DNA from: Bacteroidota bacterium
GTDB taxonomy: Bacteria; Bacteroidota; Bacteroidia; Flavobacteriales; Weeksellaceae
Length of the DNA: 64,000 bases
Assembly (NCBI GenBank): GCA_018902795.1
Contig: JAHIQD010000011.1
Location: forward strand, 35,201 to 99,200
Direction of reading: 5' to 3'
Position numbers and translations under genes: made by a program. Below the pieces are notes generated by a model. It ran no database searches and had not been told where the DNA came from. It saw only the letters and a program-made list of their open reading frames with translations. The first letter of the stretch is position 1; each line of letters starts with the position of its first letter. This document shows, one piece after another, positions 5,929 through 30,904 of this stretch.

Positions 5929-6070
5929 TTAGGAGCAAGACATTTCCCGCTTCTCCGAAGACTCGTCCCGCTTTCCGTTACAATCTTTTTTCCGGCGGCC
6001 AAGCGCCGCCGAAAAAAAGGATTTCCACTGCAATCGGGGCTAGAAGAAAACCCCGCTTTTCTTCCGGAAT
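5929..6070 (+). repeat. GC-rich structured intergenic element, copy A
   Basis: Shares blocks TTAGGAGCAA[G/C]ACA, TTCT(T)CCGAA..C.CGTCCCGC, TCGGGGCTAGAA and TTCCGGA(A)T, in the same order, with the reverse complement of 17745-17894. The centre is a GC-rich imperfect palindrome. Confidence 0.6.
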
Positions 6071-29038: not shown

Positions 29039-30079
29039 ATGAAAAAAAATTATTTTCTGTTTTTTATCCTTCTGTTTTCAATGTTTTACAGTCAGGTTGT
29101 AAATATACCGGATGCCAATTTTAAAGCAAAACTTTTAGAAGCAAATACGACCAATAATATTGCTAAAGATCTGAACGGAAATTCCGTAAAGATTGACCAA
29201 AATAATGATGGCGAAATTCAGGTTTCGGAAGCGGAGAATATTTCAAAAATTTCATTAAATAACAGTGATATAGATTTTATTTTTTATTTCTTTAATTTCA
29301 TGAATTACACCGGCATAGTTAAAGATATTTATTCAATTGAAGGAATTAACAGTTTTAAAAATTTACAGCTTTTAGACTGTTCTTATGCCAAATTAAGCAG
29401 CATAGATTTTACCAATTTAACCAAGCTGTCGGACTTGTATTGCAACAACAATTTGATCACTTCTTTTACCAATTTTCAAGAGGTAAATTCGCTTTTTGCT
29501 TTAGATTGTTCTAATAATCAGATGACTAGCTTAGATTTAAGTCAGGCTTCTGTTAACAATTCAACAGGGCGGAACGAAGTGCTTTTCAGATTTAACAACA
29601 ATAATTTTCAGTATCTGAATTTACAAAACAACAGAAATACAGCCTGGATGTGCTTATGCAGTTGGATGGATTGTCCTTTTCCGGCATATTCCACTGTGAA
29701 CAGCTGTAAGTATGTCCCGTCTCTTTACGGAAATCCAAATTTAACAGAGGTTAAGATTAATTGTGGTGAGAAATTTTACTATGAATATACCTATTCAAAT
29801 CAATTTAGTTTCACCGAAAATTGTGCAGTTTCAGCAACGCAGGAATCAGATTTTGCTAAAAAGTTTAGAATTTACCCCAATCCTGCAAATGATTTTATAG
29901 CAATTGATACGAAAGAAGCGATAAGTGAAATTTCAATATTGGACTTTTCAGGAAAAATTGTCTTTGCAAAAAAGGATAAATTCACGAATATTTCTTTGCA
30001 TCATCTTCCAAAAGGAAATTATGTGATGAAAATTAAAACCCTTGAAAAAACATTCAGTTATAAGTTTATTAAAAATTAA
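29039..30079 (+). CDS. Leucine-rich-repeat protein with a T9SS C-terminal sorting domain
   Basis: Signal peptide, the VNIPDANFKAKLL LRR cap, ~22-aa LRR units, and the C-terminal FRIYPNPANDFIAI...GNYVMKIK T9SS type A CTD. Confidence 0.8.
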   Translation: MKKNYFLFFILLFSMFYSQVVNIPDANFKAKLLEANTTNNIAKDLNGNSVKIDQNNDGEIQVSEAENISKISLNNSDIDFIFYFFNFMNYTGIVKDIYSIEGINSFKNLQLLDCSYAKLSSIDFTNLTKLSDLYCNNNLITSFTNFQEVNSLFALDCSNNQMTSLDLSQASVNNSTGRNEVLFRFNNNNFQYLNLQNNRNTAWMCLCSWMDCPFPAYSTVNSCKYVPSLYGNPNLTEVKINCGEKFYYEYTYSNQFSFTENCAVSATQESDFAKKFRIYPNPANDFIAIDTKEAISEISILDFSGKIVFAKKDKFTNISLHHLPKGNYVMKIKTLEKTFSYKFIKN

Positions 30080-30106
30080 AAAGTCATTCTTTTTAAAATA
30101 TATTTG

Positions 30107-30131
30107 GAGAAGCGTCGGCTTCTCTTTTTTT
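30107..30131 (+). terminator. Intrinsic terminator after the LRR gene (near-identical to 28964-28990)
   Basis: GAGAAGC-gtcg-GCTTCTC hairpin followed by T7. Confidence 0.7.
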
Positions 30132-30167
30132 ATGTTTTAATTTCTAATTTTACCGAAATTAAACATC

Positions 30168-30362
30168 ATGAACGAAAACAGTTCAACAAAATTAAAAAAC
30201 GGTGATTTTTGCAATGTCATCGGCGGTACCCACCAAGGAAAAACAGGTACAGTTCAGGATATCAATCTAAGTAAAACGGGACATATTACCATTACAGTTT
30301 TGCAGGAAAACGGCGTTCGTTTCAAAACTTTGGGCAAAAATGTGGAAGTGATTAAAAAATAA
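30168..30362 (+). CDS. KOW-motif small protein
   Basis: 64 aa. GDFCNVIGGTHQGKTGTV fits a KOW/SH3-like motif. Confidence 0.55.
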   Translation: MNENSSTKLKNGDFCNVIGGTHQGKTGTVQDINLSKTGHITITVLQENGVRFKTLGKNVEVIKK

Positions 30363-30476
30363 TGATTCCTTTTTCTGGTATCTGAAATTGGGCTTTATCT
30401 TTTTTGATGATTTAATAATTAAAATATTGTTTTAATGTGAAATAGTATAACAATACTTGTGATTTTTGAATAATCA

Positions 30477-30668
30477 ACTGCGGAAATCGTTCCGCAATAT
30501 TGTTTTATCATTTCTGTACGTTGCGGAACCATTTTTGAATGTTGCGGAATCATTTCTGAACGTTGCGGAACCATTTCTGAATGTTGCGAAACCGTTTCTG
30601 CATGTTGCGGAAGCATTTCTGTACGTTGCGGAACGGTTTCTGAATGTTGCGGAATTATTTCTGACGCC
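30477..30668. repeat. 21-bp tandem repeat array: 7 intact units plus 2 decayed units, headed by a palindrome
   Basis: Seven head-to-tail 21-mers at 30520-30666 (consensus GTTGCGGAAYCATTTCTGAAT). Perfect inverted repeat TGCGGAA-atcg-TTCCGCA at 30479-30496. The 7-aa periodicity (VAEPFLN) in the ORF-track translation confirms the period. Confidence 0.9.
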
Positions 30669-30700
30669 TGCCGCTCCGTTTTGTGCGTAGATGATTTTGT

Positions 30701-30904
30701 TTAAATATCCTTCACTTTTTCGTATTTAAAGAAGGGTTTAATGTTTCTGTTCAGATAAATACCTTTTGAAAAAGCAGCCCGGAAATCATCGAAAACTTCC
30801 TGCGGAACGTCCAGATAATCATAAACAGCTCCGGACACATAAACGATAGTCAGGATCTGGAGTTCCGGCTTATAAAAATATTTTATGATGACTGATGAAG
30901 GCAT
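30701..30904 (-). CDS. KTSC-domain small protein
   Basis: 67 aa. YDYLDVPQEVFDDFRAAFSKGIYLNRNIK matches the KTSC domain pattern. Confidence 0.65.
   Translation of the reverse strand: MPSSVIIKYFYKPELQILTIVYVSGAVYDYLDVPQEVFDDFRAAFSKGIYLNRNIKPFFKYEKVKDI

What the first reader, a model, noticed from the sequence alone, without database searches (positions are those of the whole stretch)
30477..30668. Helically phased 21-bp tandem array built from ~10.5-bp TTKCKGAA half-repeats, headed by a perfect palindrome, in a 3'-3' intergenic gap
Seven head-to-tail 21-mers can be read directly at 30520-30666: gttgcggaaccatttttgaat, gttgcggaatcatttctgaac, gttgcggaaccatttctgaat, gttgcgaaaccgtttctgcat, gttgcggaagcatttctgtac, gttgcggaacggtttctgaat, gttgcggaattatttctgacg. 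Two decayed units precede them at 30477-30519. Each unit holds two related octamers, TTGCGGAA and TTTCTGAA, spaced alternately 11 and 10 nt apart. About 16 TTKCKGAA motifs therefore recur once per helical turn, on one face of the DNA. The array is headed by a perfect inverted repeat of the same half-site, TGCGGAA-atcg-TTCCGCA (30479-30496), which looks like a dimer operator. It sits between the 3' ends of two convergent mini-genes (KOW, KTSC), where no promoter or operator is expected. There are no spacers, so it is not a CRISPR array. Because 21 nt is 7 codons, five of six frames stay open, which explains the two track ORFs; the plus-strand one begins at a TTG in my reading and I see no other coding signal in either. 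The architecture resembles iterons or a nucleoprotein-filament nucleation site. Intrinsically curved DNA and a hypervariable minisatellite are alternatives.
Basis: seen in the sequence. Interest (0 to 1): 0.7.

Follow-up and report, generated by a model that had tools for sequence, protein, structure and literature searches.

The report
Interspersed 21-bp minisatellite behind KTSC gene
The 21-bp tandem array is real but is a non-coding, copy-number-variable repeat of a family scattered through intergenic regions of Kaistella/Chryseobacterium genomes, here sitting in the tail of a small gene and closed by an RNA-type hairpin, not a plasmid-style iteron or operator.

Summary
The array is confirmed: seven exact-register 21-mers at 30520-30666, with decayed units on both sides. 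The window is from a Kaistella-like flavobacterium. The same array lies behind the KTSC gene in at least 12 relatives. Copy number there runs from 2 to 9, sister species lack it, and one relative carries an unrelated 21-bp array at the same spot.

The same unit also forms arrays at six other intergenic contexts. On the minus strand the unit is a 16-nt core, GAAATGGTTCCGCAAC, plus 5 variable nt. Across 86 units in 15 arrays, every spacing is a multiple of 21. The core is about four times less variable than the spacer.

No reading frame behaves as coding. The "perfect palindrome" is one inverted copy of the unit. Relatives keep it as a stem only on the minus strand, through G·U pairs, so it acts as an RNA hairpin that probably ends the KTSC transcript.

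Nothing supports an iteron or operator reading: no Rep or Par gene, and no plasmid, phage or Rfam hit. Predicted curvature is unremarkable.

Best reading: a new MIRU/BOX-like interspersed minisatellite whose core is under sequence constraint. What reads that core, as RNA or as DNA, is unresolved.

The parts
30520..30666 (-). Seven full 21-bp units. On the minus strand each is the core GAAATGGTTCCGCAAC plus 5 variable nt.
   Evidence: All spacings are exactly 21 bp.
30499..30519 (-). Decayed direct unit (minus strand GTACAGAAATGATAAAACAAT). It is conserved as GAAATGRYAAAAMRAY at the distal end of arrays at several locus types.
30478..30498 (+). One inverted copy of the unit (core at 30483-30498 on the + strand). 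With the bases next to it, it forms the stem-loop at 30479-30496, which extends to 9 pairs at 30477-30498 on the minus strand.
   Evidence: Relatives keep the stem on the minus strand only, through G·U pairs.
30465..30477 (-). U-rich tail TTGATTATTCAAA directly 3' of the hairpin on the minus strand. It is conserved as TTGATWATT at KTSC-type and PQLLE-type loci. At the PQLLE-type loci its TTG may be the promoter's -33 element; this is a by-eye reading, not a scan result.
30667..30700 (-). Decayed units filling the gap between the KTSC stop codon and the first full unit.
30701..30904 (-). KTSC-domain gene (67 aa). The array lies in its 3' untranslated tail.
   Evidence: Pfam PF13619, E=2.8e-17. 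Synteny.
30403..30426 (.). AT-rich block TTTGATGATTTAATAATTAAAATA, shared by most array-bearing KTSC loci. Its role is unknown.
   Evidence: By-eye comparison of the sequences.
30168..30362 (+). KOW mini-gene. It is a neighbour, not part of the element: the array-bearing relatives examined lack it, and L006 has it without an array.
30419..30616 (-). Spurious 65-aa ORF (xxEMVPQ frame) kept open by the repeat. More than 90 public 'hypothetical protein' clusters are ORFs of this kind.
30466..30690 (+). Spurious 74-aa ORF (VAEPFLx frame). The same frame carries stop codons in 8 of 15 arrays.

Best explanation
The array is one locus of an interspersed, non-coding minisatellite family specific to Kaistella/Chryseobacterium (Weeksellaceae). 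A module is a run of direct 21-bp units, a decayed unit, and one inverted unit.

Shown:
- The family occurs at seven or more different intergenic contexts.
- Copy number changes only in whole units, and the array can be absent.
- No frame is coding.
- The 16-nt core is far less variable than the 5-nt spacer at all loci.
- The terminal inverted unit is kept as a stem only on the minus strand.

Inferred:
- In this window the array is transcribed on the minus strand as the 3' untranslated tail of the KTSC mRNA.
- That RNA is A/C-rich and unstructured.
- The inverted unit makes the hairpin that ends or caps the transcript.
- Units are gained and lost by slipped-strand mispairing or unequal recombination, probably helped by the inverted unit.
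- The core is kept because each unit is a docking site for a sequence-specific trans-acting partner, which makes the array a multivalent platform.

For this locus I favour an RNA-level partner on the minus strand. That last step is the weakest.
For: - Array and register.
- Same locus in relatives, with 2-9 units: L001, L002, L004, L005, L009, L011, L020, L022, L029-31, L035.
- Absent in L006, L007 and L010; a different 21-bp array in L003.
- Whole-unit steps: called ORFs of 44, 51, 58, 65 and 72 aa. P0011 equals L002 minus one MVPQLTE unit.
- Other contexts:
  - Upstream of a PQLLE-family gene in three different neighbourhoods (L021, L032, L034).
  - lpdA-array-peptidase (L023).
  - htpG-terminator-array-MGMT (L025).
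  - IMPDH-array-terminator-SDR (L027).
  - L033.
- 86 units in 15 arrays: all 71 spacings are multiples of 21; non-consensus bases are 8.8% in the core and 36.6% in the spacer.
- Non-coding: stops in 15/15, 12/15 and 8/15 arrays in three frames. The open xxEMVPQ frame has its third codon position least variable. The heptad query found no protein relatives.
- Hairpin energies:
  - Minus strand: -4.3 to -11.1 kcal/mol in all nine KTSC loci; -6.3 in L021 and -2.9 in L032.
  - Plus strand: 0 to -5.2 in the eight KTSC-locus relatives; -9.7 in the window, where the palindrome is perfect; -6.3 in L021 and -0.5 in L032.
  - The stems in L021 and L032 are rebuilt from different bases.
- The minus-strand stem-loop scores as terminator-like.
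- The minus-strand array RNA is less structured than shuffles, z=+1.6.
Against: - There are no transcript data.
- Orientation relative to the neighbouring genes is not uniform. At L025 only the convergent gene could transcribe the array, and in the opposite sense. L033 is antisense to both neighbours.
- At L021, L023, L025, L032 and L034 the array follows an intrinsic terminator, so sense transcription there may be low.
- The U-tract after the hairpin is interrupted.
- A 16-nt invariant core is long for a single-stranded RNA-binding protein and would suit a DNA-binding protein or base-pairing.
- No partner has been identified.
- Presence/absence polymorphism, and replacement by an unrelated array in L003, fit dispensability.
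Confidence: 0.5

Rival explanations
1. DNA-level phased binding array (iteron-, centromere- or upstream-activator-like). A sequence-specific protein binds each 16-bp core on one face of the helix every two turns. The terminal inverted unit gives a dimer site.
For: - Exact 21-bp register without a single indel in 71 spacings, and a core-plus-spacer unit.
- 'Direct repeats plus one inverted copy' is the classical iteron/IR layout (own knowledge).
- At L021, L032 and L034 the array and hairpin sit between an upstream terminator and a promoter-like stretch of the PQLLE-family gene. That promoter was read by eye, not scored. The layout holds in three different neighbourhoods.
- Orientation relative to transcription is inconsistent between loci.
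Against: - No Rep, Par or DNA-binding gene lies next to any array.
- No plasmid, phage or viral match.
- In the window the array lies between two 3' ends.
- The palindrome is not conserved as double-stranded symmetry, only as a G·U-tolerant minus-strand stem.
- Copy number varies from 2 to 9, the array is absent from sister species, and an unrelated array sits in the same slot in L003.
Confidence: 0.2
2. Functionless (neutral or selfish) minisatellite. It is tolerated in intergenic DNA and spread or homogenised by recombination. The hairpin is merely the KTSC terminator from which the units were duplicated.
For: - Presence/absence and copy-number polymorphism between close relatives.
- Decayed edge units.
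- An unrelated 21-bp array at the same site in L003.
- Varied contexts and orientations.
Against: - The same 16-nt core is retained at seven or more unlinked loci and in genomes named as two genera, while flanks are unalignable and the 5-nt spacer is saturated.
- Neutral arrays homogenising independently should drift apart between loci.
- The array-PQLLE gene linkage has survived 28% protein divergence.
Confidence: 0.2
3. Type III toxin-antitoxin-like module. The repeats are an antitoxin RNA processed into 21-nt units that neutralise an adjacent protein.
For: The defining layout is tandem repeats, then a short palindromic terminator, then the gene (PMC3401426). L021, L032 and L034 reproduce it with a 234-aa PQLLE-family gene 50-60 nt after the hairpin. 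That paper also notes a swapped order, with the gene before the repeats, at one locus; the window has that order.
Against: - In the window no gene follows the hairpin.
- KTSC and the PQLLE protein have no ToxN, AbiQ or other defence-model hit.
- The same repeat occurs with unrelated or no partner genes.
- The units are 21 nt; known antitoxin repeats are about 34-40 nt (own knowledge).
- Intrinsic terminators leave no room for a promoter in front of the repeats at L021 and L034.
Confidence: 0.05
4. Plus-strand small RNA. A G/U-rich, highly structured transcript starts at the palindrome and runs antisense into the 3' end of KTSC.
For: - The plus-strand RNA folds far better than shuffles, z=-4.8.
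- A weak sigma-70-like match lies at 30447-30474.
- At L025 only this sense can be transcribed from a neighbouring gene.
Against: - I saw no Bacteroidetes-type promoter (TTG ... TAnnTTTG) upstream at any locus type. This was by-eye inspection only.
- The hairpin decays on this strand in relatives.
- There is no terminator after the array on the plus strand in the window.
- No Rfam family matches.
- The fold z-score is largely a by-product of G/U richness.
Confidence: 0.04
5. The array encodes a heptad-repeat peptide, or it acts as intrinsically curved DNA.
For: - The period is 7 codons.
- The minus frame xQKWFRN looks like a coiled-coil heptad and shows third>first>second codon-position variability.
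- 21 bp is two helical turns.
Against: - That frame has stops in 15/15 arrays (34 stops in 86 units), and the heptad query found no protein relatives among 5.8 billion sequences.
- The other frames fail as described above.
- The wedge model gives an end-to-end/contour ratio of 0.87, against 0.30 for phased A-tracts. 52% of shuffled-unit arrays are at least as curved (parameters recalled from memory).
Confidence: 0.02

Closest known systems
Mycobacterial interspersed repetitive units (MIRU-VNTR)
   Same: - Tandem units in intergenic regions at many dispersed loci.
- Copy number differs between strains.
- Empty sites occur in relatives.
- The unit length keeps small ORFs open.
- Transcribed with flanking genes (for MIRU: PMC3184786).
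   Different: - No sequence relation, and a different phylum.
- The unit is 21 bp rather than 40-100 bp.
- Each array is closed by one inverted unit.
- A sharply bipartite unit: a 16-nt invariant core plus a 5-nt free spacer.
- Only a handful of loci have been seen so far, and never two proven in one genome.
Pneumococcal BOX elements (boxA-boxB(n)-boxC) and SPRITE
   Same: - A modular intergenic repeat with a variable number of internal tandem subunits and conserved end modules.
- Predicted RNA-level roles.
[quoted passage not shown]
   Different: - No terminal inverted repeats or target duplications were found.
- No associated transposase.
- The subunit is much shorter.
- Loci are far fewer.
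Plasmid iterons with an inverted-repeat operator (pSC101, pPS10, R6K type)
   Same: Direct repeats of about 20 bp in helical phase (about 2 turns), plus an inverted partial copy at one end (own knowledge).
   Different: - No rep gene, AT-rich unwinding element or DnaA boxes.
- Chromosomal, at several loci next to housekeeping genes.
- Labile copy number.
- The inverted copy is conserved as an RNA-type stem, not as a DNA palindrome.
Type III toxin-antitoxin antitoxin arrays (ToxI, CptI, TenpI)
   Same: A tandem nucleotide repeat followed by a short palindromic terminator (PMC3401426). The PQLLE-type loci also have a gene right after the terminator.
   Different: - No downstream gene in the window.
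- No ToxN-like protein anywhere.
- A shorter unit.
- The same repeat occurs with unrelated neighbours.

Membership tests
Iteron-type replication origin | Tandem direct repeats of 17-22 bp in helical phase | tested here: met
   Seven units, all spacings 21 bp.
Iteron-type replication origin | Adjacent initiator (rep) gene whose promoter carries the inverted-repeat operator | tested here: not met
   The neighbours are KOW, KTSC, CvfB-like and LRR/T9SS proteins. No gene follows the palindrome on either strand.
Iteron-type replication origin | Resides on a plasmid, phage or other replicon | tested here: not met
   No blastn match in 72,556 plasmids or 50,697 phages, and no pattern match in viral contigs. 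Flanks are chromosomal housekeeping genes.
Interspersed bacterial minisatellite (MIRU/BOX-like kind) | Same unit family in tandem arrays at several unlinked intergenic loci | tested here: met
   Seven context types: KTSC, PQLLE gene, lpdA-peptidase, htpG-MGMT, IMPDH-SDR and L033, plus KTSC-locus variants. Co-occurrence of two loci within one genome could not be tested.
Interspersed bacterial minisatellite (MIRU/BOX-like kind) | Copy number varies by whole units between close relatives; empty sites exist | tested here: met
   2-9 units at the KTSC locus. ORF sizes step by 7 aa. P0011 and L002 differ by one unit. L006, L007 and L010 are empty.
Interspersed bacterial minisatellite (MIRU/BOX-like kind) | Non-coding | tested here: met
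   Stops in three frames in 8-15 of 15 arrays. Reversed codon-position variability in the open frame. The heptad query found no protein relatives.
Interspersed bacterial minisatellite (MIRU/BOX-like kind) | Sequence homology to MIRU or BOX themselves | not tested
   No direct comparison was run. The unit lengths and phyla differ, so the claim is 'same kind', not membership.
Type III toxin-antitoxin | Tandem nucleotide repeats followed by a short palindromic terminator (PMC3401426) | tested here: met
   The array, then the stem-loop at 30477-30498 on the minus strand, which scores as terminator-like.
Type III toxin-antitoxin | Toxin gene immediately downstream of the terminator | tested here: not met
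   No minus-strand ORF of 30 aa or more lies below 30477 other than the spurious repeat ORF. The feature is met only at L021, L032 and L034.
Type III toxin-antitoxin | Toxin of the ToxN/AbiQ, CptN or TenpN endoribonuclease families | tested here: not met
   PADLOC gives nothing for KTSC, KOW or the L032 PQLLE protein, and one irrelevant hit for the L021 copy (Type I methyltransferase, E=8.4e-4). Pfam and NCBIfam give KTSC and 'PQLLE family' only.
CRISPR array | Repeats separated by unique spacers of similar length, usually with cas genes | tested here: not met
   Units are contiguous, with only 5 variable nt between cores.
Intrinsic (Rho-independent) terminator, for the palindrome only | G+C-rich stem-loop downstream of a co-oriented gene, kept by pairing-preserving changes | tested here: met
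   9 pairs, 4 of them G-C, 4-nt loop. G·U-compatible changes at three stem positions in relatives. Rebuilt stems in L021 and L032.
Intrinsic (Rho-independent) terminator, for the palindrome only | Uninterrupted U-tract after the stem | tested here: inconclusive
   The tail is UUGAUUAUUC, which has 6 U in 10 but is interrupted.
Intrinsically curved DNA | Phased A-tracts giving strong predicted curvature | tested here: not met
   Ratio 0.87, against 0.30 for the A-tract control. This is no more curved than shuffled 21-bp units repeated seven times.
Known RNA families (Rfam 15) | Match to a curated covariance model | tested here: not met
   No family over the array at the gathering threshold. The only overlaps at E up to 10 are two chance-level hits to eukaryotic families (U3, MIR5048), far below their gathering scores.

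The most novel reading that the evidence does not exclude
The 16-nt core is the recognition unit of a so far unknown sequence-specific partner in Weeksellaceae, either a protein or a complementary RNA. The arrays would then be multivalent platforms. Three options fit:
- A sponge or docking RNA carried in 3' tails.
- A type III TA-like or leader-type control module for the PQLLE-family gene, which keeps terminator-array-hairpin-promoter-gene together in three different neighbourhoods.
- A phased DNA array read by a global factor.

Any of these would be a new regulatory repeat system in a phylum that lacks Hfq/CsrA-type paradigms.
Probability: 0.2. Interest if true: 0.75.

Novelty: new member of a known kind. 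Interest (0 to 1): 0.42.

Why it matters
As far as my searches reach (Rfam, literature, protein family libraries), this repeat family is undescribed. Three things follow.
- Annotation: it explains away more than 90 public 'hypothetical protein' clusters, including entries from named Kaistella and Chryseobacterium genomes, as ORF artefacts of a 21-bp repeat.
- Typing: it offers ready-made VNTR markers for typing Kaistella and Chryseobacterium strains.
- Biology: one 16-nt core persists at unlinked loci while the adjacent 5 nt are free. That is a clear signature of sequence-specific constraint with no known reader, in a phylum whose post-transcriptional regulators are poorly known. The conserved terminator-array-hairpin-PQLLE gene module is a concrete, testable entry point.

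Tried and rejected
- Plus-strand ORF (VAEPFLx). It has only one database relative, which has three units, and stops in 8/15 arrays. Rejected.
- Coiled-coil frame xQKWFRN on the minus strand. It is attractive: NTN codons at heptad position a, and third-position variability. But it has TGA, TAG or TAA stops in every array, and the query found no protein relatives. Rejected, including the idea of UGA/UAG read-through, because there is no start codon or consistent ORF boundary.
- Read-through of the KTSC stop into the repeat. It is in frame in the window, L001, L002 and L005. It is out of frame in L009 and L011 and is blocked by extra stops in L002 and L004. Rejected.
- xxEMVPQ ORF as a real small protein. 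The frame cannot acquire stops at the variable positions, its third codon position is the least variable, and its tails differ between loci. Rejected.
- Rfam at gathering and at E up to 10: nothing.
- Plasmid, phage and viral searches with the array, and with the PQLLE protein: nothing.
- Sigma-70 scan and by-eye search for the Bacteroidetes TTG/TAnnTTTG promoter upstream of the array on either strand: no conserved candidate. The one exception is the promoter-like stretch of the PQLLE gene downstream of the hairpin.
- Curvature model: unremarkable.
- Half-site (TTKCKGAA) reading. It is not supported once units from other loci are added.
- Literature searches for a described flavobacterial 21-bp repeat, KTSC function and PQLLE: nothing relevant.

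Full report
**1. Observation**

Tandem Repeats Finder reports a single strong array in the window: 30509-30664, period 21, 7.4 copies, 82% matches. None of 100 dinucleotide-preserving shuffles reached seven matches. The inverted repeat at 30479-30496 is present.

The array lies between a KOW mini-ORF (30168-30362, +) and a KTSC-domain ORF (30701-30904, -). Further out are lpdA, an LRR/T9SS protein with its terminator (30106-30125), and a CvfB-like gene.

Three details need correction.
- Only four of the six frames are open across the array.
- 30478-30498 is an inverted copy of the unit, not a decayed direct unit.
- Decayed units also fill 30667-30700, up to the KTSC stop.

**2. Relatives at the same locus**

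A genome-collection scan with the KTSC protein identified the window as Kaistella-like; the best matches are 87-94% identical and come from Kaistella species. I also used two metagenome scans and look-ups of called ORFs.

The same array lies directly behind KTSC in at least 12 genomes or contigs: L001, L002, L004, L005, L009, L011, L020, L022, L029-31 and L035. Full-unit counts there run from 2 to 9.

Other relatives differ at this site.
- K. solincola (L007) and K. treverensis (L010) have no array. There the lpdA terminator abuts KTSC.
- L006 has the KOW gene but no array.
- L003 is otherwise the closest in synteny, yet carries an unrelated 21-bp repeat (AACATTCTTGCCTTACAAAGT, about 7 copies) in the same slot.

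Spurious ORFs called over these arrays come in sizes of 44, 51, 58, 65 and 72 aa. P0011 equals the L002 reading minus exactly one unit. The array is therefore a whole-unit VNTR that is dispensable at this site.

**3. A dispersed family**

I searched the protein collection with an alignment of the stop-proof xxEMVPQ frame. It returned 102 clusters, nearly all of them ORFs called over arrays of this family. Their contigs show the same unit in other contexts.
- Upstream of a 234-aa 'PQLLE family' gene (NF052641), in three different neighbourhoods: L021, L032 and L034. The proteins in L021 and L032 are 72% identical.
- lpdA, terminator, array, S9 peptidase in Chryseobacterium sp. MDT2-18 (L023).
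- htpG, terminator, array, convergent MGMT (L025).
- IMPDH-like gene, array, palindrome, bidirectional terminator, convergent SDR (L027).
- L033, where the array is antisense to both neighbours.

Over 86 units in 15 arrays, all 71 spacings are exact multiples of 21. On the window's minus strand the unit is the core GAAATGGTTCCGCAAC plus five further positions. Non-consensus bases make up 8.8% of the core and 36.6% of the spacer. The 'two half-repeat' reading is therefore specific to this window. The GAA of the second octamer lies in the variable part.

**4. Not coding**

- The plus-strand VAEPFLx frame has TAA or TAG stops in 8/15 arrays.
- The LRNHF frame has stops in 12/15 arrays.
- The coiled-coil-looking minus frame xQKWFRN has stops in 15/15 arrays. 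A heptad query in that frame found no protein relatives among 5.8 billion sequences.
- The three remaining frames are open. In each, the variable positions cannot create stop codons (reasoned from the unit).
- In the xxEMVPQ frame the third codon position is the least variable (42, against 101 and 83). This is the opposite of a coding signature.
- The ORF tails differ completely between locus types.
- The KTSC frame runs on into the repeat in some genomes but not in others.

**5. The palindrome**

Arrays at the KTSC, PQLLE and lpdA-peptidase loci share a homologous end. It consists of a decayed unit (GAAATGRYAAAAMRAY) and then an inverted unit (TTGCGGAACGATTTC), followed at the KTSC and PQLLE loci by TTGATWATT.

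In relatives the 3' arm carries C-to-T changes at three positions. On the minus strand these keep pairing as G·U. On the plus strand they become A·C mismatches.
- Minus-strand hairpins stay at -4.3 to -11.1 kcal/mol in all nine KTSC loci.
- Plus-strand versions fall to between 0 and -5.2 in the eight KTSC-locus relatives. The window, where the palindrome is perfect, is at -9.7.
- L021 and L032 have stems rebuilt from different bases. Their minus-strand energies are -6.3 and -2.9; their plus-strand energies are -6.3 and -0.5.

The minus-strand stem-loop also scores as terminator-like. This points to an RNA (or single-strand) hairpin in the KTSC sense. It does not point to a double-stranded dimer operator.

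The minus-strand array RNA is A/C-rich and less structured than shuffles (z=+1.6). The plus strand folds strongly (z=-4.8), largely because it is G/U-rich.

**6. Other tests**

- No Rfam family matches.
- No match in plasmids, phages or viral contigs.
- No defence-system or toxin model hits KTSC or KOW, and the only hit to a PQLLE protein is an irrelevant methyltransferase model.
- A wedge-model curvature estimate gives 0.87, against 0.30 for phased A-tracts. It is no more extreme than shuffled 21-bp units repeated seven times. The parameters were recalled from memory, so this is indicative only.

**7. Interpretation**

The safest statement is that this is a new interspersed minisatellite family of Weeksellaceae. 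It is analogous in kind to MIRU and to modular BOX elements (PMC3184786). This window holds the KTSC-locus copy.

The core is kept at unlinked loci and in two named genera, while the spacer and flanks are free. That argues for sequence-specific constraint, and so for a trans-acting reader or a sequence-dependent propagation mechanism.

For this locus the hairpin asymmetry and the position between the KTSC stop and the hairpin favour a transcribed 3'-tail module on the minus strand. I commit to that, with moderate confidence.

A DNA-level phased binding array remains a serious rival.
- The register is perfect.
- Orientation relative to transcription differs between loci.
- At the PQLLE loci the array sits between an insulating terminator and a promoter-like stretch. 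That promoter was read by eye, not scored.

[quoted passage not shown] The window lacks a downstream gene, and no ToxN-like protein is present anywhere.

**8. Limits**

- I had no transcript or binding data.
- I could not model the PQLLE protein or search its family.
- The number of loci per genome, and whether two loci coexist in one genome, remain untested. L020, L021 and L022 come from one metagenome only.

Noticed in passing
L003:4222-4387 (same slot as the window array, behind KTSC): A close relative carries an unrelated 21-bp tandem repeat (unit AACATTCTTGCCTTACAAAGT, about 7 copies, two subtypes) exactly where the window has its array. Period and position are kept while the sequence is replaced. 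One plus-strand frame reads as a clean NILALQS heptad.
   Followed up: partly
L021:4833-5823, L032:2030-3103, L034:1110-1578: A conserved module occurs in three different neighbourhoods: intrinsic terminator(s), the 21-bp array, a hairpin, a promoter-like TTTATTTG/TATATTTG box, and then a 234-aa 'PQLLE family' gene (NF052641, no Pfam, function unknown). Formally this is the layout of a type III toxin-antitoxin locus.
   Followed up: partly
L021:4833-4866; L032:2033-2075 and 2093-2135; L034:1118-1150: The terminator hairpins in front of those arrays in L021 and L032 look like a repeat family of their own (CTCCRRAGTCTCCCNACTKCGGAG followed by a T-run). L032 has two in tandem; L034 has a different stem.
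   Followed up: no
window 29039-30904 and the equivalent lpdA-cvfB interval in L002-L011, L029, L030: The interval between lpdA and the CvfB-like gene is a variable hot spot. Depending on the genome it holds KTSC alone, KTSC plus array, a KOW mini-gene, an LRR/T9SS protein, or a DUF4160/DUF2442 pair.
   Followed up: partly
L028:5036-5160: A high-GC contig (59% G+C, unidentified organism) has a near-perfect 21-bp array (GGAGACCGTGCCACAACATGC, 6 copies, 98% matches) headed by inverted copies of its own unit. It shares 14/21 positions with the Kaistella unit. It was found only because its translation resembles xxEMVPQ, so the resemblance may be a search artefact.
   Followed up: no
L018:6351-6568: An Acidobacteriota MAG has a 21-bp array of 10.4 copies about 2 kb downstream of its KTSC homologue. 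Several overlapping ORFs make it unclear whether the array is coding.
   Followed up: no
window 5960-6045 (-): A Flavo-1 RNA (RF01705, 77 bits) is present. TRF also reports a two-copy 21-bp repeat overlapping its edge at 5937-5977.
   Followed up: no
P0009, P0023, P0052, P0053, P0060 (public records of K. montana, K. soli and Chryseobacterium spp.): Deposited 'hypothetical proteins' of 56-98 aa that are translations of this repeat, and so likely annotation artefacts.
   Followed up: yes
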